Positions 22,921 through 39,222 of a DNA stretch of 54,492 nt are shown here, piece by piece. The first letter of the stretch is position 1. Each line of letters starts with the position of its first letter. Made by a program: the position numbers and the translations under genes. Below the pieces are notes generated by a model. It did no database searches and had not been told where the DNA came from. It was given only the letters and a program-made list of their open reading frames with translations. This stretch comes from a virus (Duplodnaviria; Caudoviricetes): positions 1 through 54,492 of IMG/VR virus record IMGVR_UViG_3300035670_000271, one strand, 5' to 3'.

Positions 22921-22935
22921 GAGAGAGGTGAACAC

Positions 22936-24284: not shown

Positions 24285-24285
24285 G

Positions 24286-25638: not shown

Positions 25639-25663
25639 TTCTTCCTCCCGCGTCTCACTCGAC

Positions 25664-25719
25664 GCATAACGACAGCTTCAGCGGCGAAGAGGGGTGAGCC
25701 ACTCAAGCTGTCGTTAATG
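25664..25719 (-). repeat. attC site (short, terminal)
   Basis: TAACGACAGCTT...AAGCTGTCGTTA stem directly after the last cassette ORF. Confidence 0.7.
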
Positions 25720-25720
25720 A

Positions 25721-25936
25721 TTATTCTTCCCCGCGCCCCTCTGCTATCGTATTATGTTGTCGAATCATTGCCTGTGCATATATTACCGCATGGGTATAAT
25801 CATTTCTTAACGCAATTGATATGCCTCCTAATGGTTGCCATCCTTCACGTATCTTTTGTTTTACATTTTGTTGTAATATTCTGGAAGAGTTCCATTCCTC
25901 AATATGATAATCAACAATATTCATCGTAATTTGCAC
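25721..25936 (-). CDS. Cassette gene: DUF1737-like protein
   Basis: L...V...I.EGWQPLGGISI...YAQAM. Confidence 0.7.
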   Translation of the reverse strand: MQITMNIVDYHIEEWNSSRILQQNVKQKIREGWQPLGGISIALRNDYTHAVIYAQAMIRQHNTIAEGRGEE

Positions 25937-25950
25937 CTATTATTAAATAT

Positions 25951-26032
25951 GCCTAACAAGCCGCATGAGCGGCGAAAACCGCCTGGACGCTGTTCATCTT
26001 GGTTAATAGTTCCCGGCGGTTTTCGTCCGCTC
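25951..26032 (-). repeat. Truncated attC (family A)
   Basis: GCCTAAC..gcatgagcggcgaaaaccgcc...ggcggttttcgtccgctc; right core missing. Confidence 0.75.
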
Positions 26033-26080
26033 TAAGGGAACTTGGTTCACCATATTCTATCACTTAAACTGTGAACGGAG

Positions 26081-26149
26081 GCATAACGCGCTGAGGCCGC
26101 GCCATGCCTCCGTTCACACAATGATTAGTCTTCGCGCCCCGTGTTAGCA
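26081..26149 (-). repeat. Damaged attC (family C)
   Basis: Matches the 31785 site internally; both arms partly lost; GTTAGCA core at 26143. Confidence 0.7.
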
Positions 26150-26397
26150 ATTTCAGCGCCAACCTGAAATGCCATATCACACGCCTCATCAGAAACATAA
26201 TCCAACTCAGAAAAACCGCTCAACGAATATCCTATAAGTTGCGCAAATTGTTCTCTGTCCTCTCGACAAAAAGGCATTCGCGCTATTTGATTCAAATCAA
26301 AAGGGCCGTCATTAAGCAAAAAACGTACAATTCTATTTTCAACAAATCTTAGAATTCCTTTCTCGTCGATTTCTATTGATTGTAAAGGGTGTCTCAT
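26125..26397 (-). CDS. Cassette gene: phage-type hypothetical protein
   Basis: RF.EN.IV..LL...DLN.IA...F..ED.EQFAQLIGYSLSGF.EL.YVSDE. Confidence 0.7.
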   Translation of the reverse strand: MRHPLQSIEIDEKGILRFVENRIVRFLLNDGPFDLNQIARMPFCREDREQFAQLIGYSLSGFSELDYVSDEACDMAFQVGAEIANTGRED

Positions 26398-26529
26398 TCT
26401 GTTCCTCCGTAATTAGAACTTTATCCCAATTCGCTCAGGCGTGTCTTGATACGCATTATTAAGAGCATTCTGGAAACTACCTCTTCCGATATTGACTTCG
26501 TATCCTTCTGATTGTCTCCTTTAAAATAT

Positions 26530-26627
26530 TGCTAACAACGTGCATGAGCGGCGAAAACCGCCTGTGTGCTGTTCATTATTGTGAATCTCGCCCGGCGGTT
26601 TTCGTCCGATCCATGCGATTGTTAGAA
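26530..26627 (-). repeat. attC site (family A)
   Basis: TGCTAAC...GTTAGAA imperfect palindrome with bulged bases. Confidence 0.9.
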
Positions 26628-27445
26628 CGCTCATCTCCCATACTAAAAAGATTCTGCTGCCGCGTGTCCTTCTCGATACGCTGACACGCTTTCTCAAAGA
26701 TTTCCGAGTCTTTCTCCATGCCGATCCATCGTCTGCCGGTTCTAAACGCGGCAACGGCTGTTGTCCCTGAGCCGATCACGTTGTCAAGCACCGTGTCGCC
26801 TTCATTCGTATAGGTTCTGATGAGATATTCAAACAGCGCAACCGGCTTCTGTGTTGAATGTATTGTTAACCCTGATTTTGTTGAGTTGAAAAAATCAGAC
26901 TCAGTTTTTACAGAAAATACTGAACGAGGGAGCCTTGATCCGTCTTTACTTCCTGACTCCTTTATTGGTGAAAATTCCCCATAGTTTCCATTCCGCTTTT
27001 GACGATATTTCTCATTCTTAAAGCTTGGTGTAGTCAACATGAATTTCTGTGGATGATACACGGGTAAACTCTTATAAAACACAAGGATATTTTCATGCCC
27101 TCGCAACGGCATCCTGTTTGAATTCAAAAATCCTGTCGCAATCGACTTCTCCCATACTAAATCGTACCGAAACAGCTTATGATTCGACACGACAAGAAAG
27201 CTGGTGAACGGTTCAGCCGCAGTCAATACAATCGCACCATTCTGTTTGATGATGCGCTCGTACTGTTCCCATAGTGGAGCAAACGGAATAACGACATCCC
27301 ACTTATTTTGAGTCGTGCCATACGGTAAGTCAGCAAGAATCATGTCGATGGAACTGTCAGGAATATCTTGCATTAATTCCAAACAGTCTCCTTCGTAAAT
27401 GATACCATGCTCAAAGTCTTGCTCTCTCACTGGCTGAGTCTCCAT
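26576..27445 (-). CDS. Cassette gene: N6A/N4C DNA methyltransferase (beta class)
   Basis: DLPYG, HSTQKPVAL, LDNVIGSGTT. Confidence 0.92.
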   Translation of the reverse strand: METQPVREQDFEHGIIYEGDCLELMQDIPDSSIDMILADLPYGTTQNKWDVVIPFAPLWEQYERIIKQNGAIVLTAAEPFTSFLVVSNHKLFRYDLVWEKSIATGFLNSNRMPLRGHENILVFYKSLPVYHPQKFMLTTPSFKNEKYRQKRNGNYGEFSPIKESGSKDGSRLPRSVFSVKTESDFFNSTKSGLTIHSTQKPVALFEYLIRTYTNEGDTVLDNVIGSGTTAVAAFRTGRRWIGMEKDSEIFEKACQRIEKDTRQQNLFSMGDERSNNRMDRTKTAGRDSQ

Positions 27446-27450
27446 TTGCG

Positions 27451-27549
27451 TTCTAACAACGCGCATGAGCGGCGAAAACCGCCCTGTGCACTGTTCATCT
27501 TGGTTAATAGTCCCCGGCGGTTTTCGTCCGATCCATGCGATTGTTAGCC
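27451..27549 (-). repeat. attC site (family A)
   Basis: TTCTAAC...GTTAGCC. Confidence 0.9.
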
Positions 27550-27753
27550 TTTTTCCATTATCTTGTCGATCAAAAACTTTACATCATTTTCATGGACATA
27601 CGAATCATCACGACACATGCTCCATGCGTAATCTTTCAACCCTAATTCCTCAACAGTGGGAATATCCCGTAAAACAAAAGCGGCTGTCGCTGGATCGTCC
27701 CGTGTCAGAAACTCTTGCGCCGTCGCAATAGCTTTTTTAGTATGCTCTGTCAT
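27544..27753 (-). CDS. Cassette gene: hypothetical protein
   Basis: RBS AAGGA; stop TAA lies inside the inverse core. Confidence 0.7.
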   Translation of the reverse strand: MTEHTKKAIATAQEFLTRDDPATAAFVLRDIPTVEELGLKDYAWSMCRDDSYVHENDVKFLIDKIMEKG

Positions 27754-27770
27754 TTCCTTCACCTTTAAGT

Positions 27771-27881
27771 GGCTAACGCTTGTTTTGCACCTGACCCAAA
27801 AGGGCGGGCGCAACACGCTTGAAAGTAAACCACTAATTTTTATGCCCGCCCTTTTGGGTCAGGTGCAAAACATTGTTCGCA
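27771..27881 (-). repeat. attC site
   Basis: GGCTAAC...GTTCGCA around a long stem tgttttgcacctgacccaaaagggcgggc. Confidence 0.85.
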
Positions 27882-28021
27882 GGCGTTTTGTGTATTCAAC
27901 ACGACTGCCGTGTTTTTGGTACTTCTGACACCCGCTAAGATGTCAGGTTGCCATCTCGGTTCGGTACGTTGACCGGTGCGTTACCTCACGAAAGCTCTAC
28001 ATGAGAGCAACACTTCACGCC

Positions 28022-28040
28022 TGCGAACGCATTGTTATGC
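28022..28040 (-). repeat. Collapsed attC (cores only)
   Basis: TGCGAAC-gcatt-GTTATGC; each core complements the far end of its neighbouring cassette. Confidence 0.6.
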
Positions 28041-28086
28041 AACTTGTTTATATTGTTAGACATACGAACACTATCCACAGGAGAAA

Positions 28087-28188
28087 GCATAACGACTGCG
28101 ATAACGCGCTGAAGACGCGCCTGCACAGACGCTCGTTCAATGTTAATCTTGCTGCGCGGCTTCAGTCGCGTTCATTGCTTTGTTAGCA
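28087..28188 (-). repeat. attC site (family C)
   Basis: GCATAAC...GTTAGCA. Confidence 0.88.
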
Positions 28189-28451
28189 ATCTGTTCATAT
28201 TTTAAACCATGTGCTCTATGCGCTGCATTTACTGTCTCAAGCGTCGTTTCACACCAATGAAACAAAGGATGATCTTGATTTTTGCACATCCAAGAATCCT
28301 GCAATAATTTTATTTGTTCTTCTATGCGCGATAGATAATCATGAATGCTCATTTTATTAACTCTATCATGAGAATCTGAATGGCAAAAATCAGAAAATCT
28401 TTGTTCTTCTGCGCCCCTATTATATCCGTGACCCCATTGTTTCTTGCCCAT
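28143..28451 (-). CDS. Cassette gene: hypothetical protein
   Basis: RBS AAGGA; the ORF reads through into attC. Confidence 0.65.
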   Translation of the reverse strand: MGKKQWGHGYNRGAEEQRFSDFCHSDSHDRVNKMSIHDYLSRIEEQIKLLQDSWMCKNQDHPLFHWCETTLETVNAAHRAHGLKYEQIANKAMNATEAAQQD

Positions 28452-28473
28452 ACATATCCTTTCGTTCTAAGAT

Positions 28474-28571
28474 TGCTAACAACGCGCATGAGCGGCGAAA
28501 ACCGCCTGGACGCTGTTCATTATTGGTAATCTCGCCCGACGGTTTTCGTCCGATCTATGCGATTGTTATTC
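28474..28571 (-). repeat. attC site (family A)
   Basis: TGCTAAC...GTTATTC. Confidence 0.9.
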
Positions 28572-28796
28572 GTCCTTATCAATACATTCAATTTCTACTT
28601 TGCCGTTTGATTTGATAATAAATACAAACCTTTTTGATTTAGCATTTTCATGCGTTAAATCAAAACGCTGGCGCAATTCAGCAGGGATTGTCATCTGCCA
28701 ATGCTCTGATGTTTTCCCCTGGCTGACTCTTATAGCAATAGGTTTTGATTTGATTTCAAATTGTGGACTCATGCCGGTATTTTGCCCCCAGGCCAA
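28566..28796 (-). CDS. Cassette gene: AbrB/MazE/SpoVT-type DNA-binding protein
   Basis: QMTIPAELRQRFDL...FII..GKVEI. Confidence 0.7.
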   Translation of the reverse strand: MAWGQNTGMSPQFEIKSKPIAIRVSQGKTSEHWQMTIPAELRQRFDLTHENAKSKRFVFIIKSNGKVEIECIDKDE

Positions 28797-28990
28797 AATT
28801 TACGATACTGTGATGCTTCGTAATCAGCTTGCCAGTATTCCTTTTGCGCTAATTCGTAACAATGCTTTAGCCCAGGAGATACCCTCCCGTGTTTTTTTGC
28901 GTCGTCTACCATTTCTTTATGCGCTTCCCGTCTTTTCTTGACGGCTTTATCCAAATCTTTTTTCACGTTACGCCATGCACGGTATCCCAT
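28769..28990 (-). CDS. Cassette gene: small basic protein paired with the AbrB-like gene
   Basis: First ORF downstream of the cassette-internal promoter. Confidence 0.6.
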   Translation of the reverse strand: MGYRAWRNVKKDLDKAVKKRREAHKEMVDDAKKHGRVSPGLKHCYELAQKEYWQADYEASQYRKFWPGGKIPA

Positions 28991-29053
28991 TATATTTCCC
29001 CCATTTCTTGTTTGAGTTCTTTCAACGTCTATACGTTCACTTAACTAATATAC

Positions 29054-29082
29054 AGTATAATATACCGACAGGTATTTGTCAA
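29054..29082 (-). promoter_or_regulatory. Cassette-internal promoter
   Basis: TTGACA-17-TATACT; the spacer holds the palindrome atacc-tgtc-ggtat. Confidence 0.8.
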
Positions 29083-29146
29083 GCGTTTATCAAAAATATT
29101 TACTCTCAGGTGTGATTTTTTCAATAAACGCTGCAAACAGGAAGAC

Positions 29147-29247
29147 GGATAACGAGCGCATAACCGGCTTTGGAGGGCGCGTGCTCACTTCACCACGAGG
29201 TGAAATTCCCCGCGCCCTCCAAAGTCCGGTTCATGCGTTTGTTATGA
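29147..29247 (-). repeat. attC site (family B)
   Basis: GGATAAC...GTTATGA; near-identical to 35734-35833. Confidence 0.9.
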
Positions 29248-29294
29248 CTTCGGTTTATTTTGCGATTGCTACAATACGATCTTTCTTGAATTTA

Positions 29295-29353
29295 CGCTCG
29301 CACCATGTTAGTGTTCCGGCGCGGTTTCAGTCGCGTTCATTGCAGTGTTATAT
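29295..29353 (-). repeat. Half attC (family C)
   Basis: gcgcggtttcagtcgcgttcattgcagtGTTATAT right arm only. Confidence 0.7.
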
Positions 29354-29559
29354 CACCCACCACCTGCCACAGCTTTTCCGAATGATTCTTTCACAGAATG
29401 GACAGATAATTCTCCCCAAATGCAAGGATCGTAAGTCATTTCTTTTTTGATGATTTCCTGCGCTTCTTCTAATGATTCAGCAATAGCGAACGCTAACCCA
29501 GAAGTATAGTCAGGAGAAAACCCTTCCCAAACATATAATTGTAATTTATTTTTTGCCAT
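29353..29559 (-). CDS. Cassette gene: phage-type hypothetical protein
   Basis: LYVWEG...DYTSGLAFAIAES.EEA; RBS GGAGG. Confidence 0.7.
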   Translation of the reverse strand: MAKNKLQLYVWEGFSPDYTSGLAFAIAESLEEAQEIIKKEMTYDPCIWGELSVHSVKESFGKAVAGGG

Positions 29560-29583
29560 GATTCCCTCCGCTCGTAGTTAGTG

Positions 29584-29686
29584 ATATAACGACTGGCATA
29601 ACCGGCAAAAGCCGCGCCAGTACTTGGTTTATAGACTATCCAAATTCGCCGCGCGGCTTTTGTCCGCGTTCATGCCTTTGTTAGGC
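29584..29686 (-). repeat. attC site (family D)
   Basis: ATATAAC...GTTAGGC. Confidence 0.9.
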
Positions 29687-29901
29687 TTCTGTTTCATTTT
29701 GACTGCTGCAATTTCTCGCTCACGCTTCGATTTCGGCATGTTGCGAAAAAAAAAGATCGCGCGTTCAAGATACAAAGGAACTGGCCGTTCTCCTGTCGTC
29801 ATGCGATAAATGACAGGGCGATGAGAGCCTAACAACAAGGCGGCCTGACGTGGATTTAGGCCATATTCCTCCAAGAATGTGTTGAGTTCGTCTTGTGTCA
29901 T
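29629..29901 (-). CDS. Cassette gene: HTH DNA-binding protein (Aca-like)
   Basis: MTQDELNTFLEEYGLNPRQAALLLGSHRPVIYRMTTGERPVP. Confidence 0.75.
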   Translation of the reverse strand: MTQDELNTFLEEYGLNPRQAALLLGSHRPVIYRMTTGERPVPLYLERAIFFFRNMPKSKREREIAAVKMKQKPNKGMNADKSRAANLDSL

Positions 29902-29929
29902 AGCATGAAAGGGGCTTTCGCCCCTCTGT

Positions 29930-30139
29930 TTAGATTTCTGAAAAATCTTGAGCATCAAAATTCAATTCGCCCATGTTCGTTTCTACTGTGTATGATACAG
30001 CGATAAAGTATCCTGGTTTATTTTTGTATATGGTCGGCTCTTCAATTTTTGTTTCGACTCTTTCCGCTGAATACACTTTGCCAGATTCTATTCCAAAAGA
30101 TTTGTTGAAATCGTTATTTGCTTTAACTTGAACTCTCAT
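29930..30139 (-). CDS. Cassette gene: small protein upstream of the HTH gene
   Basis: RBS AAGGAG and ATG 30139 downstream of an internal promoter. Confidence 0.7.
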   Translation of the reverse strand: MRVQVKANNDFNKSFGIESGKVYSAERVETKIEEPTIYKNKPGYFIAVSYTVETNMGELNFDAQDFSEI

Positions 30140-30195
30140 TTTTATTCTCCTTGTTGTTAGTGTTTTTGTTTTCCCTCTCATCAACTTACAAGTTT

Positions 30196-30224
30196 AATAT
30201 AGTACCAATGGTACTTTTTGTCAA
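30196..30224 (-). promoter_or_regulatory. Cassette-internal promoter with operator palindrome
   Basis: TTGACA-17-TATATT; the spacer contains AGTACCA-T-TGGTACT. Confidence 0.8.
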
Positions 30225-30333
30225 GCACTTTCTCACATTTTTTTGAATTATTTTATATAATTCCTGAAAATGCCTGATTCATAGGGAGCACAAGGAGAAA
30301 ATATTTTATCAAAGAACGCTGTTGATGGTAGAA

Positions 30334-30445
30334 GCCTAACGACAAGCTTCAGCAGCTTGGAAGGGCGGGCGGCAACCAAGCGTGAAGTAAAACAACAGAC
30401 TTTCTACGCCCGCCCTTCCAAGTCTGCTGCAAGCATTTGTTCGGG
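30334..30445 (-). repeat. attC site
   Basis: GCCTAAC...GTTCGGG; stem gcttcagcagcttggaagggcgggc with two bulges. Confidence 0.88.
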
Positions 30446-30591
30446 CTTCTTTCGTCTCATAACCACATCCTGCCATAAAAGAAAACTATTGGCTAAAATT
30501 ACCCCAAACCAAGCAATCCCTCTAAACAAACTGATTCCAATTATACTGATGATAATCGCAAAGATACGAATAGTCATCAGTGAACGATTGT

Positions 30592-31344
30592 TTAATATGG
30601 TCTCTTGCATGTTGGACATATCCCTTTTGTTGACGCTGTTGGTTTTGAACCAACATTGATCCCGAAATTTTCTTTGATTGGATGTGGGCCTAAATATACG
30701 CCTTGCGTAAACGACCCCGCACCATATAATAACTCAATAATCTCTTGCTTTTGTTGGTCTGATAATGTTTTAAACCAATCCTGTTCAAATGCAAGAAAAT
30801 TTCGATTGAGAACCTTACAAGATGCAGGAACTGTGCCACCACCTGTAAAGGGATCAAAAATAATTGCTTGCGTTGATGTCAGCCTGTCTATGTAATACAG
30901 ATACGGCCCCGCCTGTTTATGCCACTTATGATTTCCTGATAATAACGCCGGATTCCCATCAACAAAATAATCTCTTGTTGGCTTATTCACAGTAGGAATG
31001 CCCTTTCTAAATACAAGAATAGAGTGCCAACAAGAAAACATTTTCATTGCGCCAAAAATATTGAGTGCTGGACGATAGCAGGCTATTTGCCAAATAAATT
31101 CAATTGTTTCATTTTGAACAGCTTGAAGTGTTTCAAAGAGCCGTTTTTGTGCGTGCCATACTAAACAAGCTGAATTTGGCTTCAATATCCGCGCTGCTGT
31201 TTCTCCGAGCCATTTATAATCATCAACGTTTTCATAAATGGGATCAGTGAAAATCAGGTCAACCGATTCATCGGGAATGCCCTTTGACAATTCTCTGGCA
31301 TCGCCTGTATAGATTTGGTTGAGTTCGTATTCTCCGAGTTTCAC
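30592..31344 (-). CDS. Cassette gene: DNA methyltransferase, probably a chimera with an unrelated C-terminus
   Basis: DLIFTDPIY, HKWHKQ and DPFTGGGT, then unrelated sequence ending CPTC. Confidence 0.8.
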   Translation of the reverse strand: MKLGEYELNQIYTGDARELSKGIPDESVDLIFTDPIYENVDDYKWLGETAARILKPNSACLVWHAQKRLFETLQAVQNETIEFIWQIACYRPALNIFGAMKMFSCWHSILVFRKGIPTVNKPTRDYFVDGNPALLSGNHKWHKQAGPYLYYIDRLTSTQAIIFDPFTGGGTVPASCKVLNRNFLAFEQDWFKTLSDQQKQEIIELLYGAGSFTQGVYLGPHPIKENFGINVGSKPTASTKGICPTCKRPY

Positions 31345-31360
31345 TGTCTCACCTCAAGCA

Positions 31361-31459
31361 GCAGAACAACACGCATGAGCGGCGAAAACCGCCCTGTGCT
31401 CTGCTTATTATTGTTAATAGTCCCCGGCGGTTTTCGTCCGCTCGATGCGATTGTTAGAC
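31361..31459 (-). repeat. attC site (family A)
   Basis: GCAGAAC...GTTAGAC. Confidence 0.9.
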
Positions 31460-31762
31460 ATGATTAATTGCTACCTGCGTTAATTTAGCAATTACCCAAA
31501 CACGTAAGTCTGACAAATCTTTATTCACCTCAGCGGCACACTCAAGCCAGCGTTCTCCCGCCATCACATCGAACAGAATATGTCCCTTATAATCGCCATG
31601 CGTGTATTCTATATTTTTTACAGACATATCCAAAAATTGAGCGCAAGCATTGACTTCTTTCTGTACGGATTCTTGTCTTGCAATCTGCGATTGCAATGCT
31701 TGTGGATCATCATACTTCCCCCTTGCTAATCCTGCTATGTCGGAAAACTTTGATAATTTCAT
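31454..31762 (-). CDS. Cassette gene: hypothetical protein
   Basis: Fills the cassette; stop in the inverse core. Confidence 0.7.
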   Translation of the reverse strand: MKLSKFSDIAGLARGKYDDPQALQSQIARQESVQKEVNACAQFLDMSVKNIEYTHGDYKGHILFDVMAGERWLECAAEVNKDLSDLRVWVIAKLTQVAINHV

Positions 31763-31784
31763 TTCTTACCACTCCTGTGAGTAT

Positions 31785-31885
31785 TGCTAACGACTGGCAT
31801 AACGCGCTGAGGCCGCGCAATGCTGCCGTTCACACAATGTTAATCTTCGCGCGCGGCCTCAGTCGCGTTCATGCCTTCGTTAGAC
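31785..31885 (-). repeat. attC site (family C)
   Basis: TGCTAAC...GTTAGAC. Confidence 0.9.
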
Positions 31886-32126
31886 ATCCTCCCTGTTATC
31901 CTTTGAGCCTCTTTCAACGCTCCCTCTCTCACGATCTTTGATTCTTCAATCCCTGAAACCTCAACAGCCAATTCAATTATATGCCGTTCCTCTTCCGAGA
32001 AACGATAGACCTTACGAATAGTTCGGCGTTTTTCTTCTGGCTTCTCGGCGTTTTTGTATGTGCCAGGGCGGAGTCCCTGGTTTCGATTATCTTCTCGATT
32101 ATCTCTTTGAATTCTAAATCATCCAT
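31840..32126 (-). pseudogene. Frameshifted DUF1778-like RHH antitoxin/regulator cassette gene
   Basis: Adding one C near 32003 gives VRSIRFSEEERHIIELAVEVSGIEESKIVREGALKEAQRI. Confidence 0.6.
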
Positions 32127-32152
32127 ATCTTTTGTTTGTATTACAGAGCGGT

Positions 32153-32263
32153 TTCTAACGATCGCAAATCACCGGCGACAAAGGGCGGGCGGGAAAAGCC
32201 TGTAATACAGCAACCAAGTTTTAGGCCCGCCCTTTGGCGTCCGGTGCATTTGCATTGTTATGC
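32153..32263 (-). repeat. attC site
   Basis: TTCTAAC...GTTATGC. Confidence 0.88.
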
Positions 32264-32452
32264 TGCGTCTATTGTCTTTTCAACTAACTGACGCAGCCAC
32301 TTTTGATACGACTTAAACCCGGCCACTTTTGCCGCCTGAATGATGTGCTTTTTCAATTCCGGCTCACACCTGAAAGACACTTGCACATCTTTTGTGCCGT
32401 CTTTAGTGGAGCCGGTTGGTCTCCCGGCTCCTTCTCGTTTCCCGCCTCGCAT
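32258..32452 (-). CDS. Cassette gene: RHH-type DNA-binding protein
   Basis: RGGKREGAGRP, then VSFRCEPELK...AA...G...WLR. Confidence 0.75.
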   Translation of the reverse strand: MRGGKREGAGRPTGSTKDGTKDVQVSFRCEPELKKHIIQAAKVAGFKSYQKWLRQLVEKTIDAA

Positions 32453-32733
32453 TAGTATGCCTCGTATCCTTCAATTTCCCAATCCAGTTGATCCAACTCC
32501 TCAACCTTATCGAGAGCATCCTGCATCTGGTAGTAATAGGCTACAAGGGTGCGTCGTTCGCCTTCTGCGTCCGTGTAGTTTATGGATGCCGTAAACTCAA
32601 CAGATTGATCGCCGTCCGTCTGTACCCGCCCGCTAAAATCGCAATTCTCACGATCTAATGCTTCAACAACTTCTTTACTAGCTTCTACGATTGCCTGATC
32701 TCTCGTTAATTTACCGTGTCTCATGTGTTTCAC
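32452..32733 (-). CDS. Cassette gene: small acidic protein (anti-defence candidate)
   Basis: D/E-rich 93 aa, TAATG-coupled to the RHH gene, own promoter TTGACA-16-TATATT at 32782-32809. Confidence 0.7.
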   Translation of the reverse strand: MKHMRHGKLTRDQAIVEASKEVVEALDRENCDFSGRVQTDGDQSVEFTASINYTDAEGERRTLVAYYYQMQDALDKVEELDQLDWEIEGYEAY

Positions 32734-32907
32734 CTCGTTTGCTTGACGTTTTTAAAATTTCCATTTACTGAGTATAGTCTTAATATAAGCATTATAGAAT
32801 TTTTGTCAAGCAAATAATCTAAATATTTACACAAACAAGACGATTTTTTGAGGTCAAAACCTGAGAACGCCTGATCTTGTAGGCAAGAACTTTTTACGAG
32901 TGAAGCA

Positions 32908-33014
32908 GCATAACGACGCGCATAACCCGCCAAAAGCCGCGCGCCGAATTGTTTCACGAACACCGGCCACGCTCTCCGCGCGGGTTTTGGTCGGGGTTCA
33001 TGCGATTGTTATGC
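32908..33014 (-). repeat. attC site
   Basis: GCATAAC...GTTATGC. Confidence 0.9.
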
Positions 33015-33203
33015 CGCACATTTCCAAATTTTAACATTCCCCTGATTACTTGCCTTCCAGTAAGCATGCTTTTCTGCCCATCGCATTAGGCGAACAAGGC
33101 TAAATCTTGACACCCCATAATATTTACGATAATGCCACCCGATACACACAAGGTTTTTCACTCCTGGAAGATTATCATATATTGCGATACCTGTCTTCTT
33201 CAT
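33009..33203 (-). CDS. Cassette gene: small basic hypothetical protein
   Basis: RBS AGGGGAG, ATG 33203, stop in the inverse core. Confidence 0.65.
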   Translation of the reverse strand: MKKTGIAIYDNLPGVKNLVCIGWHYRKYYGVSRFSLVRLMRWAEKHAYWKASNQGNVKIWKCAA

Positions 33204-33233
33204 TTCTCCCCTTTGCCGCTTACTTTTTAAGCG

Positions 33234-33374
33234 GCATAACGCTTGGCTTGAGGTGCTTGGGGGACGCCCTTCAGCGGAGCAACCAAGCCCGAACCCCCTC
33301 TGAACGATATGGCGGACAACCTCTGCTGAAATCACCGCGCGTCCCCCAAGTCACCCTCCAAGCCTTTGTTCGCG
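33234..33374 (-). repeat. attC site (long, 141 bp)
   Basis: GCATAAC..ggcttgaggtgcttgggggacgc...gcgtcccccaagtcaccctccaagcc..GTTCGCG. Confidence 0.85.
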
Positions 33375-33385
33375 ATGCTCTCTCG

Positions 33386-34960
33386 TTATAACAATTGTTG
33401 TTGCGTACTTTCTTGAATATGCTTGCCAGCCGTTTTAAAGACGCCATGCGTCGTCATGGGCATTTTGACCTGTTCACCATCCAATAGCTGTTCAATCGTC
33501 AGAAGTTGAATCGTCGGAAACTGTGTCGCATAGACGCCAAGCTGCTCACCATGCGGAGAATAAAAGCCTTCCTGCTTGGCTTCTCGAATCATGGGCGTCG
33601 TCACCTGTTCCTGAAAACACACAAACACTCCAATTGCGGCTTTTTGAGACTTCACGACGTGAATAAACTCTCTCAGGTTCTTGACATTCACCTTGCCGCT
33701 TTTGACTTCGATCAGCACGGTTTCTTTCTTCTTGCCCATCGCAAAGGTCATGTGCCCATCCCATCCGCCATCTGCGGTTTTCTTGGGATTACTGACACCT
33801 GACAACACAAATTCAATGACCCAATCCTGAAATTTAAACCGACCATTGTCGTCACTTTCCGCTAAAGCTTTGGCTGAGGCGATGTCTTTTGGAATGCCAA
33901 ACACTTCAAAGGTGTGACGAATTTCAGCATATTTTGTGTCATACGTCTCCTGAAGGCGTTTCATGACCAGTTTGATTGAGAGATGTGAAATGTCAACGCC
34001 TAACCATCGGCGGCCTAATTTTTGGGCGACAGCGATGGTTGTCCCGCATCCACAGCAAAAGTCAGCCACCAGATCGCCTTCGTTGCTGCTCGTTTTGAGA
34101 ATACGTTCAAGTAGTTCTTCTGGTTTTTGGGTCGGATACCCTAAACGCTCTTTTGCCATTGGATTGATATGAAAAATATCATTCCATAAATTATTCATAG
34201 GAACGCCTTTCAGGGTATTGATGTATTGCTTATATTCTGGCTTTCCTGATTTTGTCCACCGCAACATATCTTGTGATTCAAGGTCGTGTAACTTTTCATC
34301 AGAATATGTTTTCATCGCTTGCCAACGATATTTCCCTTTTACGTCTTGATACTTGAACCGTTTGAGATAAGTTTCTCCATATTCTCGATACAGCTTATTA
34401 AAGGTAAATTGTTCAGTCTTTGTATAAAATAAAATCGTATCAGTATCGGCACTGAATCGTTTTGAGAGAGATTTGCTACTCCCAGTGTTTGTCGTTCTTT
34501 GCCAAATAATTTCATTTTGAAAATATCGTTCACTAAAAATCATATCACAGGCTATCTTCAAATAATGGCTCATTGTTGGGTCACAGTGCAAATAAAAGCT
34601 TCCAGTGTCTTTCAGTACCTTGTACATATACCATATTCTGAGAGCCATCGTACAGAGATACGATATAGCTGCCTTTGGGAGTGACGTATTATCAAGCACA
34701 TTCAGCACGTTATACAGGTCAAGATCAATCTCATGAATCTCGTTCAATGTGTCGAGATAGGACACTTGACTCCATGTATCGGCAAACGCTTCTTTTTGGG
34801 CTTTGGTGTCTTGCAAGTCCACATCTTCAAACAAAATGTTATAGTTCCGTTTTGAGTTAAACGGAGGGTCAATATAAATCAGATCAATAAAGCCGTTTGG
34901 ATGCGCGGCATACAGTTGTTTGAGTATATCGAGATTATCACCAAAATATAATGCATTCAC
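33386..34960 (-). CDS. Cassette gene: DNA methyltransferase fused to a Mrr-like PD-(D/E)xK domain
   Basis: IYIDPPF, YPTQKPE, DFCCGCGTT; C-terminal DGGWDG...IEVKSG. Confidence 0.9.
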   Translation of the reverse strand: MNALYFGDNLDILKQLYAAHPNGFIDLIYIDPPFNSKRNYNILFEDVDLQDTKAQKEAFADTWSQVSYLDTLNEIHEIDLDLYNVLNVLDNTSLPKAAISYLCTMALRIWYMYKVLKDTGSFYLHCDPTMSHYLKIACDMIFSERYFQNEIIWQRTTNTGSSKSLSKRFSADTDTILFYTKTEQFTFNKLYREYGETYLKRFKYQDVKGKYRWQAMKTYSDEKLHDLESQDMLRWTKSGKPEYKQYINTLKGVPMNNLWNDIFHINPMAKERLGYPTQKPEELLERILKTSSNEGDLVADFCCGCGTTIAVAQKLGRRWLGVDISHLSIKLVMKRLQETYDTKYAEIRHTFEVFGIPKDIASAKALAESDDNGRFKFQDWVIEFVLSGVSNPKKTADGGWDGHMTFAMGKKKETVLIEVKSGKVNVKNLREFIHVVKSQKAAIGVFVCFQEQVTTPMIREAKQEGFYSPHGEQLGVYATQFPTIQLLTIEQLLDGEQVKMPMTTHGVFKTAGKHIQESTQQQLL

Positions 34961-35017
34961 ACCTGGCGTTCATCTTTCGTATAGCCTCATATACGCTTAG
35001 TTAAGAGACTATACCAA

Positions 35018-35119
35018 AGCGAACGACTGGCATAACCGGCAACAGCCGCGCCTTCCAGCCGCTTGCACTATGTTAATGTTTCGGCGCGGCTGTTGTCCGC
35101 GTTCATGCCTTTGTTAGCA
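35018..35119 (-). repeat. attC site (family D)
   Basis: AGCGAAC...GTTAGCA. Confidence 0.9.
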
Positions 35120-35136
35120 ATCTGATTTTTATTTAC

Positions 35137-35337
35137 TTGACATATCATAATATACTTACTATCTTTATCTTGATGATAGTTGAGCATAGCGACTTTTTAT
35201 CAAGTCCGCCGTGACTGCTCAGGAAATTAACTCTAATACAAGGATGAAACAAGTTCATTTCGTATAGCGTTATACGTTGCTTTCCAGACTACATCAAAGC
35301 GAACGCCGCCCCAGGTCTAAGCAGCCTGGGGCTTTTC
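35137..35337 (+). ncRNA. Candidate cassette-encoded small RNA (promoter to terminator)
   Basis: TTGACA-17-TATCTT at 35137-35165; no convincing ORF; terminator gccccagg...cctggggctttt at 35308-35336. Confidence 0.5.
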
Positions 35338-35709
35338 ATTATAACATGATAAGCATCCATCTCGTTTATCACACTCCGTCACATCACACGAAGAATTTAC
35401 CATATCATCCTGCATACGTCGCCGTTCTTCATCTGGCAATACATTCCATGCGTATTCTGCATGGTTTAGACAATATTTGCCTCCACAAACCTGCTCAGGC
35501 TCTTCTCCGTGATATTTACGGATAGTATTGACAGATTGAACGCTGATGTAAAGACTGTATCTTGAGTCTGCCTCATCAGTATTTTGAATCTGAATTGTCT
35601 GGTCATGCGGAGTGACAACCTGCACAATTTGAATAATTTCTCCATCGCCATATTCTTCTACTTCTTCTGTATGAATGTTTTTAAAATGAACCCAATCACC
35701 TATTTTCAT
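35317..35709 (-). CDS. Cassette gene: hypothetical protein, Cys-rich C-terminus
   Basis: MKIGDWV N-terminus; several Cys pairs. Confidence 0.7.
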   Translation of the reverse strand: MKIGDWVHFKNIHTEEVEEYGDGEIIQIVQVVTPHDQTIQIQNTDEADSRYSLYISVQSVNTIRKYHGEEPEQVCGGKYCLNHAEYAWNVLPDEERRRMQDDMVNSSCDVTECDKRDGCLSCYNEKPQAA

Positions 35710-35733
35710 ATCTCAATGCCACTCCCATAAGAT

Positions 35734-35833
35734 TGCTAACGAGCGCATAACCGGCTTTGGAGGGCGCGTACTCACTTCCCACGAGGCAAAAGTTCCCGCG
35801 CCCTCCAAAGTCCGGTTCATGCGGTTGTTATGC
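35734..35833 (-). repeat. attC site (family B), first cassette
   Basis: TGCTAAC...GTTATGC. Confidence 0.9.
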
Positions 35834-36034
35834 AGATTTGTCTCCATGAATCGGGAAATTCCATTCACGACATTTCCCATACGCTTCTTTCGCTGCTTTA
35901 TCATCGTTGCCTTTAATGCCAAGTCCGATTTTATCACGACAACTAACTCCACACCATCCAGTTAAATGCGGCTTTACGTGTTGATTACAATATACCCATT
36001 GATTCTCACCAAATACTTTTGCATCTTCTTCCAT
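35828..36034 (-). CDS. First-position cassette gene: small Cys/His hypothetical protein
   Basis: WVYC.QH..PH.TGWC; RBS GAGGAG; stop in the inverse core. Confidence 0.7.
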   Translation of the reverse strand: MEEDAKVFGENQWVYCNQHVKPHLTGWCGVSCRDKIGLGIKGNDDKAAKEAYGKCREWNFPIHGDKSA

Positions 36035-36058
36035 GTCTTTCTCCTCTCTTCATGAACG

Positions 36059-36121
36059 GCATAACAATTATTATATTGACAAATTCTATATCTAATATTA
36101 TATTAATACACAGAAAGTCAA
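36059..36121 (-). promoter_or_regulatory. attI-like site overlapping the integrase promoter
   Basis: Lone G/TTATGC core at 36065 with no hairpin; plus-strand TTGACA-17-TATATT at 36076-36104. Confidence 0.7.
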
Positions 36122-36132
36122 GGAGAAAATAC

Positions 36133-36864
36133 ATGAAAACAAAAAAATATGACGAATATCTACTCTATCTCTATAGTTTTTCACAACTTAGCAAACAAAC
36201 AATCTGTGCGTATCTCTCATGGTCAGCAAAGCTCTGTCTCTGGGTTGGGGTCGCGCATCCGTTGGACGTGCCGCCGGGAAAAATTGACGAATTTCGCCTC
36301 TATCTACTTAACGAGAAAAAATTCTCATGGAAGAGCGATACGGTTGTGTTTAACGCTTTGAAGCACACCTACTCGACGCTCTTGAAACATGTTGAACCAG
36401 AAGAGGCCAAGAAATATGCGAATATCTTCCGCACGTCACCACGACAGCCTAACACCCTGCCGCGCTATGTGACACAGGAGAGCATGGCCGCCTTTTGCGC
36501 GGCGCTTCCTGCGACGATTGCAGGCAATCTCTTGCGATCAAGCTATCAGACGGGAAAAACGGTAGATATGATTTTGGCCAAGGCGGAAAAGCCCTGGAAA
36601 GTCTCGCAGAGATACCTGCAACAAGTTTGTCTAAAGACCGCGCTGAAAGTCGGTATGCCGAAAGGGTTCGGCGTGACCGGAGTCAGGGGTGCTGGCATCT
36701 TACACAGAATCCAAAACCGACAGACGGATTTAGAATTGACAGCCATTCGTGAGGATTCCGGCCTGTCACATGCGCAGTTTCTCTTGTATTGTCGAGCGGC
36801 AGGTGTGACCGGGTTATCTGGGAATGCAACCAGACAACGCCACCGCAAGAAGAAGCAAGCATAA
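36133..36864 (+). CDS. intI: Integron-integrase (IntI)-derived protein, internally deleted and probably catalytically inactive
   Basis: S.QT..AY..W......GV.HP......I.EF..YL.NE.K.S, PR..NTLP..T and Y.TG align with IntI1; box I R and box II H residues replaced. Confidence 0.8.
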   Translation: MKTKKYDEYLLYLYSFSQLSKQTICAYLSWSAKLCLWVGVAHPLDVPPGKIDEFRLYLLNEKKFSWKSDTVVFNALKHTYSTLLKHVEPEEAKKYANIFRTSPRQPNTLPRYVTQESMAAFCAALPATIAGNLLRSSYQTGKTVDMILAKAEKPWKVSQRYLQQVCLKTALKVGMPKGFGVTGVRGAGILHRIQNRQTDLELTAIREDSGLSHAQFLLYCRAAGVTGLSGNATRQRHRKKKQA

Positions 36865-36874
36865 CAGATAGAAT

Positions 36875-37177
36875 CTATATCGCATAAGACTTCCGAATTC
36901 CGGCGTAAATCGCTCGGTAAACGAACCACCACGCCAACGTAATGGGGATATTGGCAAGAATCCAATCCACCACTGGCAAAAACGCAAACTGAGCGCCCAC
37001 AATCGTTTCTACGACGCGGGGGGCATGATGGAGGATTACGCCACACGCCACAAGATTTACGAGCACCTGTGGCGTGTAGACCCTATAAATTCGGTAACTC
37101 TGAATAGCGAGCGCCAAAAAGATCGCAAACTCTAACGCCATGAGGCAAAACGAAATACTATACAGAATCGTCTTCAT
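36875..37177 (-). CDS. Membrane protein with 3 predicted TM segments (holin candidate)
   Basis: Three hydrophobic segments and a basic C-terminus. Confidence 0.5.
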   Translation of the reverse strand: MKTILYSISFCLMALEFAIFLALAIQSYRIYRVYTPQVLVNLVACGVILHHAPRVVETIVGAQFAFLPVVDWILANIPITLAWWFVYRAIYAGIRKSYAI

Positions 37178-37186
37178 CTCTTCCTC

Positions 37187-38854: not shown

Positions 38855-38857
38855 AGA

Positions 38858-39196: not shown

Positions 39197-39222
39197 TTTT
39201 TCCTCCTTCTATTCTGGTGGTG

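What the first reader, a model, noticed from the sequence alone, without database searches (positions are those of the whole stretch)
25664..36864. A native phage integron: about 20 attC-bounded cassettes of phage-type genes
Seen: 16 intact (56-141 bp) and 4 damaged imperfect palindromes with AAC...GTT cores. They separate one- or two-gene units, all on the minus strand. Stop codons often fall in the inverse core. The array ends at a hairpin-less core (attI-like, 36065) next to a divergently transcribed IntI-like gene. Known: this is canonical integron layout, and integrons are typically chromosomal or on plasmids and transposons. Inference: with no transposon or resistance context and phage-like cargo (methyltransferases, small early-type proteins), this looks like an integron used as the phage accessory genome, about 20% of its length.
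Basis: partly seen in the sequence, partly recalled or inferred. Interest (0 to 1): 0.96.

Follow-up and report, generated by a model that had tools for sequence, protein, structure and literature searches.

The report
Large integron cassette array in phage
A complete 54-kb phage genome devotes about a fifth of its length to a genuine integron-type gene-cassette array, but the neighbouring "integrase" is a shortened relative that has lost nearly all catalytic residues, so the phage probably depends on a host enzyme to capture cassettes.

Summary
A covariance model built only from 13 attC sites of bona fide integrons (class 1, Vibrio-type, bacterium UASB270) finds 16 sites in the window. All lie on the minus strand within 25951-35833, at E<=1.8e-8, and nothing comparable lies elsewhere. 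The sites share canonical attC geometry and strong covariation.

The window is a complete phage genome: 127-bp terminal repeat, CheckV 100%, and capsid, portal, terminase and replication genes on both sides. Contigs of three runs give the array the same depth as the backbone. Contigs in all three runs cross both junctions, so a chimera is unlikely.

The divergent 243-aa gene has an IntI/Xer-type N-terminal domain (best PDB match VchIntIA). It lacks about 90 residues, including the beta-hairpin lysine and the IntI-specific insertion, and keeps one of the five RKHRH residues. It belongs to a rare conserved family of 219-264 aa proteins. The phage has no other recombinase.

Formally this is a very large phage CALIN, headed by an attI-like core and an IntI-derived, probably non-catalytic protein. 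Recombination activity is untested.

The parts
25664..36065 (-). Whole cassette array: 20 intervals between successive G|TT cores, about 10.4 kb, 19% of the unique genome length
   Evidence: GC 43.2% (40.8% without the attC sites) against 48.9% for the backbone
36133..36864 (+). Divergent 243-aa gene: IntI/Xer-type N-terminal core-binding domain plus a truncated, degenerate catalytic-domain remnant
   Evidence: PF13495 E 8e-8; TIGR02249 22 bits vs cut-off 265; PDB 2a3v N-terminal only; alignment to real IntIs; family of 8 homologues; AF2 pLDDT 84, all-helical; Foldseek top hits IntI4 and XerA
36076..36104 (+). Promoter-like site (TTGACA-17-TATATT, 11 of 12) upstream of the integrase-like gene
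   Evidence: consensus match only
36094..36121 (-). Weak promoter-like site (TTGACT-16-AATATT, 9 of 12) facing the cassettes; candidate Pc
   Evidence: consensus match only; overall promoter count is not above shuffles
36059..36065 (-). attI-like core GTTATGC without a hairpin; start of cassette 1
   Evidence: same heptamer as the R' core of several attC sites
35734..35833 (-). attC s1 (100 nt)
   Evidence: R2 59.0 bits; 90% identical to s11
35300..35325 (-). Remnant of an attC 3' end (…GGCGGCGTTCGC) between cassettes 2 and 3
   Evidence: by eye; not found by R1 or R2
35018..35119 (-). attC s2
   Evidence: R2 51.2 bits
33386..34960 (-). Cassette 4: 524-aa N6/N4 DNA methyltransferase with a C-terminal Mrr_cat-like domain
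   Evidence: PF01555 E 4e-43, PF04471 E 2.5e-6; phrog_67 E 1e-58
33234..33374 (-). attC s3 (141 nt, longest)
   Evidence: R2 46.4 bits
32908..33014 (-). attC s4
   Evidence: R2 48.7 bits
32782..32809 (-). Internal promoter-like site (11 of 12) of two-gene cassette 6 (ORFs 32452-32733 and 32258-32452, the latter NikA-like RHH, E 5e-4)
32153..32263 (-). attC s5
   Evidence: R2 56.6 bits
31785..31885 (-). attC s6
   Evidence: R2 61.6 bits
31361..31459 (-). attC s7
   Evidence: R2 56.0 bits
30592..31344 (-). Cassette 9: 250-aa DNA methyltransferase, followed by a 71-aa hydrophobic ORF at 30404-30619
30334..30445 (-). attC s8
   Evidence: R2 53.6 bits
30196..30224 (-). Internal promoter-like site (11 of 12) of two-gene cassette 10 (ORFs 29930-30184 and 29629-29958; the latter hits phrog_14076, transcriptional regulator, E 3e-4)
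29584..29686 (-). attC s9
   Evidence: R2 66.7 bits
29290..29353 (-). Damaged attC s10 (5' half only)
   Evidence: by eye; not found by R1 or R2
29147..29247 (-). attC s11
   Evidence: R2 57.4 bits
29054..29082 (-). Internal promoter-like site (11 of 12) of two-gene cassette 12 (ORFs 28769-28990 and 28566-28796)
28474..28571 (-). attC s12
   Evidence: R2 49.7 bits
28087..28188 (-). attC s13
   Evidence: R2 51.5 bits
27865..28040 (-). Odd 176-nt element: attC-like 5' arm pairing with a distant 3' arm that overlaps the 5' arm of s15; status unclear
   Evidence: by eye; only the 5' arm gives a weak R2 match (28012-28040, E 0.44)
27771..27881 (-). attC s15
   Evidence: R2 46.3 bits
27451..27549 (-). 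attC s16
   Evidence: R2 52.8 bits
26576..27445 (-). Cassette 17: 289-aa N6/N4 DNA methyltransferase
   Evidence: PF01555 E 1.7e-28
26530..26627 (-). attC s17
   Evidence: R2 46.4 bits
26072..26149 (-). Damaged attC s18 (5' arm lost; 3' part resembles s6)
   Evidence: by eye; not found by R1 or R2
25951..26050 (-). attC s19 (5' core lost, rest intact)
   Evidence: R2 37.8 bits, E 1.8e-8; not in the training set of R1, which scores it 55.2 bits
25664..25719 (-). attC s20 (56 nt, short form; last site, abutting the convergent gene 24229-25638)
   Evidence: weak: R2 E 0.11, R1 E 0.061 although it was in R1's training set; perfect 11-bp AACGACAGCTT/AAGCTGTCGTT arms

Best explanation
This is a real integron-type cassette array (16-17 recognisable attC sites, 20 cassette intervals) resident in the genome of a complete tailed phage that encodes no recombinase of its own.

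Shown:
- The sites are canonical attC sites in the canonical orientation relative to their ORFs.
- The array is physically part of the phage genome.
- It begins at an attI-like GTTATGC core, 67 nt from a divergent gene.
- That gene is a shortened derivative of the IntI/Xer recombinase group and lacks nearly all catalytic residues.
- It belongs to a small conserved protein family.

Inferred:
- The cassettes were inserted one or a few at a time by an integron integrase supplied in trans by host cells. The closest attC type among the loci I examined is that of bacterium UASB270, which carries intact IntI genes.
- The phage's own IntI-derived protein no longer cuts DNA. It acts as a DNA-binding factor at the attI/promoter region or on folded attC sites, as a regulator, a targeting aid or a blocker of host IntI.
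- The cargo serves the phage. Three DNA methyltransferases would protect it against restriction. Three two-gene cassettes carry their own strong promoter-like sites. The rest are small orphan proteins.
For: attC identity:
- R2, trained on 13 non-phage sites, gives 16 minus-strand hits at E<=1.8e-8 and none outside the array.
- Reciprocally, R1, trained on 16 phage sites, finds class 1 sites (1 in L071, 4 in L075), 6 Vibrio-type sites in L061 and 2 sites next to a 450-bit IntI in L072. All are on the cassette strand.
- 94.3% of cells are paired against 69.2% in shuffles (0 of 500 reach it). 17 of 22 pairs show compensatory changes. Slid controls pair 35-44%.
- There are two single-base bulges on the 5' arm. 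The second is A in 15 of 15 phage sites that have a letter there, and in 13 of 13 reference sites.
- The arm pattern has 59 loci in bacterial genomes and 0 in IMG/VR.

Phage context:
- Hallmark genes lie on both sides.
- 127-bp DTR, CheckV 100%.
- Depth of the backbone is 48.8 against 42.9-55.2 for array contigs in X1, and 13.2-15 against 10.6-17.6 in X2.
- In X3, a run not flagged as a possible source, contigs 25083-25802 and 34808-37309 cross both junctions with 0 differences.

Integrase-like gene.

No other recombinase.

Multi-source acquisition:
- attC pairwise identity is 35-90%, falling into at least five families.
- Cassette GC is 8 points below the backbone, while the integrase-like gene matches the backbone.
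Against: - No recombination was observed. One search shows no joints, but it used contigs only, which drop rare variants.
- The host is unknown, and the link to UASB270-type integrons rests only on attC similarity (R1 76.7 bits) and a distant capsid homologue (28% identity).
- Loss of catalysis is inferred from alignment, not tested. A tyrosine near the usual position is kept in most family members.
- The genomic context of the 8 homologues could not be seen, so it is unknown whether the family goes with attC arrays.
- The order of four blocks between 25968 and 29179 rests on the original assembly alone, because per-run contigs break at repeated attC families.
- Lower cassette GC also fits a single capture of a host array.
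- No close relative of the phage was found for comparison of arrays.
Confidence: 0.6

Rival explanations
1. One-step capture: the phage picked up a stretch of a host chromosomal integron (platform remnant plus cassettes) by illegitimate or homologous recombination. The array is now passenger DNA that is slowly decaying, and the integrase-like gene is just its relic.
For: - Cassette GC (40.8% without attC) is below the backbone (48.9%).
- Several sites are damaged and two intervals are empty.
- Temperate Vibrio phages are documented to have captured host integron segments (Qi et al. 2023, section 3.1).
- attC types match bacterial ones.
Against: - The integrase-like gene has backbone GC (49.0%) and belongs to a conserved family of equally short proteins at 27-46% identity. 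That is not the look of a recent deletion relic.
- The family was not found at E<=1e-15 in any of the 1,217 genome searches I ran in four phyla plus five single genomes; only N-termini of real IntIs matched, at weaker E.
- attC sites are heterogeneous (35-90% identity), whereas sedentary arrays are described as homogeneous (Qi et al. 2023).
- No host housekeeping genes flank the array, unlike MK672802.
- No integrase for lysogeny is present.
Confidence: 0.2
2. Complete, self-sufficient phage integron: the 243-aa protein is an unusual but active recombinase that itself captures and shuffles cassettes.
For: - Position and divergent orientation next to an attI-like core.
- IntI is the best match of its N-terminal domain.
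- Conserved family with invariant R185 and R192 and a mostly conserved C-terminal Tyr.
- Foldseek aligns both halves to tyrosine recombinases.
Against: - Only 1 of the RKHRH pentad is kept.
- About 90 residues are missing, including the beta-hairpin Lys and the IntI-specific insertion. The pentad and the I2 helix are named as features of integron integrases in Escudero et al. 2016 (passages).
- No PF00589 hit even at E 0.1.
- The model is all-helical, without strands.
Confidence: 0.07
3. Assembly artefact: a host integron was joined to a phage contig in the metagenome assembly.
For: - Repeated attC families break per-run contigs at six places.
- All four runs come from one study, and two may be the source sample.
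Against: - Array and backbone have equal depth in X1 and X2.
- The 44.6-kb backbone contig of X1 runs into the array at both ends.
- X3 contigs bridge both junctions with 0 differences.
- The genome closes with a 127-bp terminal repeat.
Confidence: 0.03
4. The palindromes are not attC sites but terminators or another class of intergenic repeat (REP/MITE-like).
For: They are GC-rich hairpins placed after genes.
Against: - They are detected by a model trained only on sites of three kinds of real integrons, with a strand bias of about 8-50 bits.
- AAC...GTT cores are invariant.
- Bulged bases sit at the canonical positions.
- The terminator scan reports only the stem of one site (30394-30414) among them.
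Confidence: 0.01

Closest known systems
[quoted passage not shown] 2023, PMC9892861; I read the abstract, section 3 part 1 and section 3.4)
   Same: attC-bounded, mostly co-oriented cassettes inside phage genomes with no functional IntI. DNA methyltransferases are among the cargo. In that paper 5 of 6 tested phage attC sites were recombined by IntI1.
   Different: Those described in the text and legends have 2-3 attC sites (TJE1: 4 ORFs, 3 sites). Here there are 16-17 model-detected sites and 20 intervals, 19% of the genome. The array has a defined head with an attI-like core and an IntI-derived gene. The full list of their 17 CALINs is in a supplement I could not open.
Chromosomal integrons of environmental bacteria, for example that of bacterium UASB270 (G001:C3, locus L072)
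   Same: Same attC geometry and closely similar arms (...T[G]AACCGG[A]C...). The two L072 sites score 60.6 and 56.7 bits with the phage-derived model. A gene lies divergent to the cassettes.
   Different: There the gene is a full 333-aa IntI (450.6 bits, cut-off 265). Here it is a 243-aa derivative at 22 bits. The replicon here is a phage. The attI regions show no similarity above shuffles.
Complete integron carried by temperate Vibrio phage Va_90-11-286_p16 (MK672802; Qi et al. 2023)
   Same: A phage record with an integrase gene divergent to a row of attC cassettes. R1 finds 6 sites there on the cassette strand.
   Different: That one is described as a subset of the host's sedentary integron, captured at prophage excision. 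It lies next to host genes (threonine-tRNA ligase, IF-3, L35, L20) and the record also has a lysogeny integrase. The present phage has neither host genes nor any catalytic recombinase.
Tyrosine-recombinase-fold phage regulators (SPbeta MrpR/YopR, phi3T SroF)
   Same: Phage-encoded proteins with the recombinase fold, listed by Foldseek as a master regulator and a repressor. They are a possible precedent for a DNA-binding, non-recombining role.
   Different: The structural match here is weak (E 1-3, probability 0.18-0.44). There is no sequence similarity.

Membership tests
attC recombination site (integron cassette site) | Inverse core ...AAC at the 5' end and core GTT... at the 3' end on the cassette coding strand | tested here: met
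   AAC and GTT are invariant columns in the alignment of 16 sites
attC recombination site (integron cassette site) | Imperfect inverted repeats (L''/L' and beyond) conserved as structure rather than sequence | tested here: met
   22 pairs, 17 with compensatory changes; 94.3% paired vs 69.2% in shuffles (0 of 500); slid controls 35-44%; pairwise identity only 35-90%
attC recombination site (integron cassette site) | Unpaired central spacer and extrahelical bases on the R''/L'' arm (features named in PMC8946536, passages) | tested here: met
   Unpaired stretch between the AAC/GTT cores and the first pairs. Two one-base bulges on the 5' arm: first G in 14 of 16 (reference sites: G 5, C 4, T 3, A 1 of 13); second A in 15 of 15 with a letter (reference sites 13 of 13)
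attC recombination site (integron cassette site) | Variable terminal structure giving variable length | tested here: met
   56-141 nt
attC recombination site (integron cassette site) | Recognised by a covariance model of known attC sites | tested here: met
   R2 (13 sites of class 1, Vibrio-type and UASB270 integrons): 16 hits at E<=1.8e-8. Caveat: the 13 training sites were located and aligned with the phage-derived model R1, and this is not IntegronFinder's own model
attC recombination site (integron cassette site) | Recombined by an integron integrase | not testable with these tools
   Needs an attC x attI assay
Integron integrase (IntI) | Scores above the curated cut-off of the IntI family model | tested here: not met
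   TIGR02249: 21.9-22.3 bits vs cut-off 265, N-terminal positions 13-116 only
Integron integrase (IntI) | Catalytic RKHRH pentad and tyrosine (pentad named in PMC4792948, passages) | tested here: not met
   In the alignment with three UASB270 IntIs only the second Arg is kept. Box-I Arg, the Lys region and both His are absent. A Tyr lies one position off in most members. No PF00589 hit at E<=0.1
Integron integrase (IntI) | IntI-specific additional domain (I2 helix region) | tested here: not met
   It falls within the ~90-residue gap of the family relative to IntIs
Integron integrase (IntI) | N-terminal core-binding domain of the IntI/Xer group | tested here: met
   Family profile vs PDB: IntI4 (2a3v) E 1.5e-9, XerA E 8e-5. 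8 of 9 members hit TIGR02249, 6 XerA, 5 XerC, 4 XerD, all below cut-offs
Complete integron (intI + attI + attC cassettes) | A functional-looking intI adjacent to the array | tested here: not met
   See the IntI rows. The topology (divergent gene, attI-like core, co-oriented cassettes) is present
CALIN (cluster of attC sites lacking an integron-integrase) | At least two attC sites and no integron-integrase nearby (as used in Qi et al. 2023) | tested here: met
   16 sites; no IntI above cut-off in the whole genome
Complete tailed-phage genome | Hallmark genes and closed ends | tested here: met
   Major head, protease, portal, large terminase, tape measure, primase/helicase; 127-bp terminal repeat; CheckV 100% as reported by the tool

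The most novel reading that the evidence does not exclude
A lineage of phages maintains its own integron platform: an attI-like site, a cassette promoter region and a conserved, non-catalytic IntI-derived protein. It parasitises the host's integron integrase in trans. The short protein either directs host IntI to the phage attI or shields the phage's folded attC sites from it. The phage would then draw on, and feed back into, the bacterial cassette pool as a stockpile of counter-defence genes. This would be a third way of life for integrons, besides sedentary chromosomal and transposon/plasmid-borne ones. It would also give material for the speculation, voiced in Escudero et al. 2016 (passage seen), that integrons have a viral connection.
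Probability: 0.25. Interest if true: 0.9.

Novelty: new variant of a known kind. Interest (0 to 1): 0.77.

Why it matters
Integron parts in phages were reported only recently, either as small clusters or as accidental captures (Qi et al. 2023).

Here a complete phage gives a fifth of its genome to a well-formed array of canonical attC cassettes, with a defined head. That makes phages credible long-term carriers and exchangers of integron cassettes, not only occasional transducers.

The cargo of three DNA methyltransferases and many small unknown proteins suggests the cassette format is being used to stockpile phage counter-defence genes. This would mirror the recent finding that bacterial integrons stockpile anti-phage defence genes; I saw those 2024 preprints only as titles and abstracts in the listing.

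The IntI-derived protein with a conserved, catalytically stripped architecture is a new object. It could show how integrase activity is controlled or hijacked in trans.

All of this is directly testable with established attC x attI assays.

Tried and rejected
Site finding. My first energy- and geometry-based scans were either too strict or too noisy. I replaced them with covariance models. Rfam holds no matching family (0 matches).

Relatives of the phage:
- megablast of 50 kb against 50,697 phage records: none.
- Major head protein in IMG/VR: none.
- Portal alignment A6 in IMG/VR: 2 contigs of 4.1 and 4.8 kb (41% identity). They are too short to reach the syntenic region and have no attC hit.

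Relatives of the integrase-like protein:
- Word-based search: only itself, and with the profile only itself plus two known members.
- tblastn against phages: none.
- IMG/VR, JGI metagenome contigs and GTDB genome contigs with A2 or P0013: none.
- The 8 homologues sit on contigs of 1.1-5.0 kb from Logan/ENA.
- Whole-genome profile searches found no member at E<=1e-15 in 401 + 401 + 401 sampled genomes of three phyla or in 5 single genomes. In these runs only 7 candidates per genome were scored. In the 9 genomes of UASB270's phylum only N-termini of true IntIs matched, at weaker E.

Other leads that went nowhere:
- attC-family patterns in IMG/VR: 0.
- Similarity of the phage attI region to attI regions of UASB270, class 1 and Vibrio integrons: not above shuffles (score 23 vs mean 19, max 29). 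I dropped the 'GTCAATATAAT' resemblance.
- blastn of the array against the 59 bacterial loci: one weak hit.
- tblastn of 21 cassette ORFs against 84 loci: only methyltransferase hits in L009.
- AF2 without an alignment was uninformative (pLDDT 39).
- Host assignment: only a 28%-identical capsid homologue in UASB270. I make no host claim.
- The neighbouring 555-aa protein gave only leads to viral beta-helix/Ig-like proteins (scores <0.9). It is not a transposase as far as this shows.

Read laying:
- Run X4 has depth over 25805-39752 but almost none over 22001-25804 and none over 39753-41000.
- Loose ends at 27261, 27301, 27454, 29910, 32028, 34838 and 34877 are mostly not at attC boundaries, and I did not interpret them.

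Literature. Searches turned up only Qi et al. 2023 on integrons in phage genomes. One 2026 preprint on cassette recovery had 0 occurrences of phage-genome terms. The library lacks most subscription journals, and supplements were closed. Supplementary Table S1 of Qi et al. lists all 17 CALINs and could show larger ones.

Full report
WHAT THE WINDOW IS. The 54,492-base window is a whole IMG/VR virus record with direct terminal repeats and a CheckV completeness of 100%. I confirmed a 127-bp terminal direct repeat. PHROG profiles identify a major head protein (4919-5893, E 4e-58), a maturation protease, a virion protein, primase/helicase genes (11479-17584), a portal (39590-41719), a large terminase (41732-43354) and a tape-measure protein (50792-54475). 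Phage genes therefore lie on both sides of the region in question. No record in the 50,697-phage collection is similar at megablast level.

THE OBSERVATION. Read on the minus strand, 25664-36065 is a row of short ORFs, each followed by an imperfect palindrome that starts ...AAC and ends GTT.... I aligned 16 intact copies.
- AAC and GTT are invariant.
- RNAalifold pairs 22 columns, 17 of them with compensatory changes.
- 94.3% of cells form standard pairs against 69.2% in 500 column shuffles (none reach it) and 35-44% when partners are slid by 1-3 columns. The covariation score is 0.577 against 0.179.
- Pairwise identity between sites is only 35-90%. There are at least five sequence families: {s1, s11}, {s7, s12, s16, s17, s19}, {s2, s9}, {s6, s13}, {s5, s8, s15}. 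Structure, not sequence, is what is conserved.

ARE THEY attC SITES?
- a class 1 integron mosaic in phage-plasmid P1 MH445380;
- the Vibrio-type integron in phage MK672802 (both named in Qi et al. 2023);
- the integron of bacterium UASB270, whose IntI scores 450.6 bits against a 265-bit cut-off.

Test 1. A model built from the 16 phage sites (R1) finds 1 + 4 class 1 sites, 6 Vibrio-type sites, 2 sites beside the UASB270 IntI and 3 more in another UASB270 scaffold. It also finds sites in Acidobacteriota, Aminicenantes, Anaerolineales, Planctomycetota, Bacteroidota and Spirochaete loci. The strongest match at each is on the strand expected from the integrase or cassette orientation, where that is known.

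Test 2. A model built only from the 13 class 1, Vibrio and UASB270 sites (R2) was run over the whole window with filters off. It gives 16 minus-strand hits at E<=1.8e-8, all within 25951-35833. The same loci score about 8-50 bits lower on the plus strand, and nothing else passes E 0.05.

The fine geometry also agrees. After the inverse core come about five unpaired bases, three pairs, a bulged base, six pairs and a second bulged base. That second bulge is A on the coding strand in 15 of 15 phage sites with a letter there, and in 13 of 13 reference sites. The first bulge is G in 14 of 16 phage sites and variable in the references (G 5, C 4, T 3, A 1). These are the unpaired central spacer, extrahelical bases and variable terminal structure that a review names as the defining features (PMC8946536, passages).

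An arm pattern taken from the phage sites occurs in 59 loci of the GTDB genome collection and in none of IMG/VR. Of the 60 matches, 43 are an 82-84-nt Planctomycetota-type repeat. The rest come from Acidobacteriota, Spirochaetes, Anaerolineales, UASB270 and others.

Caveat: the training sites of R2 were located and aligned with R1, so the alignment leans towards the same structure. The sequences themselves are independent.

CASSETTE ANATOMY. Successive G|TT cores define 20 intervals of 94-1784 nt (the first starts at 36065).
- Of 17 cassette-terminal ORFs, 6 have their TAA inside the inverse core, 6 stop deeper inside the attC and 5 stop outside an intact site.
- Damaged sites seen by eye are a 5' half (about 29290-29353), a 3' part (about 26072-26149) and a remnant (about 35300-35325). 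Site 25951-26050 has lost its 5' core but is still detected. The last site (25664-25719, 56 nt) is weak for both models.
- Two intervals (27871-27777 and 26076-25957) hold no plausible gene.
- Cargo: three N6/N4 DNA methyltransferases (33386-34960, with an Mrr_cat-like C-terminal domain; 30592-31344; 26576-27445).
- Cargo with family hits: a 68-aa protein of phrog_34232 (E 3e-8), a DUF1737 protein (E 6e-5), a NikA-like RHH protein (E 5e-4) and a putative regulator (phrog_14076, E 3e-4). The rest have no match.
- Three two-gene cassettes (6, 10, 12) carry 11-of-12 matches to the sigma-70 consensus. A fourth such match faces the integrase-like gene. The total number of promoter-like sites is not above shuffles.
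- GC: array 43.2% (40.8% without attC sites), backbone 48.9%, integrase-like gene 49.0%.

THE "INTEGRASE". The divergent gene (ATG 36133, 243 aa) matches only the N-terminal SAM-like domain (PF13495, E 8e-8). It reaches 22 bits on the integron-integrase model against a cut-off of 265. The PF00589 catalytic domain and the serine-recombinase domain are absent from the whole genome.

An exhaustive HMMER search of 1.84 billion representatives found 11 proteins at E<=0.001. Eight of them are full-length homologues of 219-264 aa at 27-46% identity, all on contigs of 1.1-5.0 kb.

Aligned with three real IntIs of UASB270, the family shows:
- a retained N-terminal domain;
- no arginine in the box-I position;
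- about 90 residues missing, covering the beta-hairpin with the catalytic lysine and the insertion peculiar to integron integrases;
- in box II only the arginine retained;
- a tyrosine one position off in most members.

The family profile's best solved relative is VchIntIA (2a3v, E 1.5e-9, N-terminal part), followed by XerA (E 8e-5), with a faint second stretch aligning to the HxLRH region. Eight of 9 members hit the IntI model, fewer the Xer models, and all are far below cut-offs.

With the family alignment AlphaFold gives a confident (pLDDT 84.4), entirely helical model. Its best Foldseek matches are IntI4 and XerA (E 2e-4). Phage regulators with this fold (MrpR, YopR, SroF) appear only at E 1-3.

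I conclude, by inference, that this is an IntI/Xer-derived DNA-binding protein that no longer catalyses recombination. Its conservation argues that it has a function. It is not an integron integrase by any of the three defining features I could test.

IS THE ARRAY REALLY IN THE PHAGE? Four runs of one study (subsurface and soil metagenomes) hold the region. Two may be the source sample. Laying their Logan contigs on 22001-41000 shows:
- In X1, one 44.6-kb contig is the phage backbone and enters the array at both ends (up to 25991 and from 35740).
- The array itself is split into contigs that abut at repeated attC families.
- Depths are equal: backbone 48.8 against 42.9-55.2 in X1, and 13.2-15 against 10.6-17.6 in X2.
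- In X3, which is not flagged as a source, contigs 25083-25802 and 34808-37309 bridge both junctions with no differences.
- No joints were reported.

A chimeric join with a host chromosome is therefore unlikely. The order of the four blocks between 25968 and 29179 is not independently confirmed, and all runs are from one study.

MECHANISM. Best reading (confidence about 0.6 for the whole, far higher for its shown parts): the array is a phage-resident CALIN with an intact head. It was built by attC x attI or attC x attC recombination catalysed by a host IntI in trans. The phage's short IntI-derived protein is a non-catalytic DNA-binding factor. The cargo serves phage fitness, methyltransferases against restriction being the clearest case.
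- Heterogeneous attC families and low-GC cargo next to a backbone-GC platform gene favour piecemeal acquisition over a single capture, but do not exclude it.
- Among the loci I scored, UASB270 sites are the closest to the phage's (76.7 and 65.5 bits with R1). That genome has three full IntIs and a distant capsid homologue. This is a lead to the host lineage, no more.

COMPARISON WITH WHAT IS KNOWN. Qi et al. 2023 screened 10,705 phage genomes (I read the abstract, section 3 part 1 and section 3.4). They found 3 complete integrons and one In0 in temperate phages, explained as captures from host or plasmid integrons. They also found 17 CALINs with at least two attC sites, and five methyltransferases among the cargo. 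Five of six tested phage attC sites were recombined by IntI1.

The present case is of that kind but differs in three ways:
- scale (16-17 sites, 19% of a complete genome);
- a defined attI-like head;
- the conserved IntI-derived gene.

My four literature searches found no description of either a phage array of this size or this protein family.

VERDICT. Observation confirmed. Interpretation partly supported: a real, large, phage-borne attC cassette array, but not a canonical complete integron. I rate it a new variant of a known kind, interest 0.77.

Noticed in passing
window 35250-35304 and 34975-35024 (minus strand): Cassettes 3 and 4 begin with the same ~55-nt leader after the GTT core (TTCGCTTTGrTrTAGTCT ... 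GTATA-n-TATAC hairpin ... ATGAAC). It is either a shared regulatory 5' region or a duplicated cassette start, with cassette 3 a truncated copy.
   Followed up: no
window 27865-28040: An attC-like 5' arm (GCATAACAATGCGTTCGCAGGCG) pairs with a 3' arm 150 nt away that overlaps the 5' arm of the next site. The 110 nt in between have no ORF and no Rfam match. It may be a fused or rearranged pair of sites.
   Followed up: partly
window 31840-32126 (cassette 7): The reading frame that gives an RHH-like peptide (...RKVYRFSEEERHIIELAVEVSG...) has no start codon in phase with the upstream ATG at 32126. This is probably a frameshifted paralogue of the NikA-like gene of cassette 6.
   Followed up: no
window sites s3, s5, s8; L019 7468-7578; L072 5296-5407: The loop regions of three phage attC sites and of two UASB270 sites share the octamer TTGGTTGC, although loops are supposed to be the variable part. 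This hints at a common attC lineage.
   Followed up: no
window 22001-41000, run X4: In the small soil run X4 all 32 laid contigs are at least 99% identical and lie between 25805 and 39752. The flanks 22001-25804 and 39753-41000 have almost no depth.
   Followed up: no
G004:C1 (Planctomycetaceae bacterium SH139), e.g. 6130264-6131067: At least eight near-identical copies of a 428-477-aa open frame match the IntI model in two pieces (positions 5-180 and 238-314, 120.9 + 82 bits). This is a multi-copy recombinase gene, perhaps part of a repeated mobile element.
   Followed up: no
G001:C13:256343-258505 (bacterium UASB270): Two full-length integron-integrase genes (438.9 and 398 bits) lie in tandem on the same strand. 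No attC site of the phage type was found in the 16 kb downstream that I fetched (L073).
   Followed up: partly
Genome-contig loci L002-L060: 43 of the 60 pattern matches are an almost invariant 82-84-nt attC-like repeat shared by many Planctomycetota genera, and by MAGs labelled Kuenenia and 'delta proteobacterium'. That is remarkable sequence conservation across genera.
   Followed up: no
window 24229-25638 (+) and 22801-24033 (+): The two plus-strand genes that converge on the array's tail have no clear family. The first has a weak HerA/FtsK-type P-loop match (E 4e-4, below cut-off). They interrupt an otherwise minus-strand genome.
   Followed up: no
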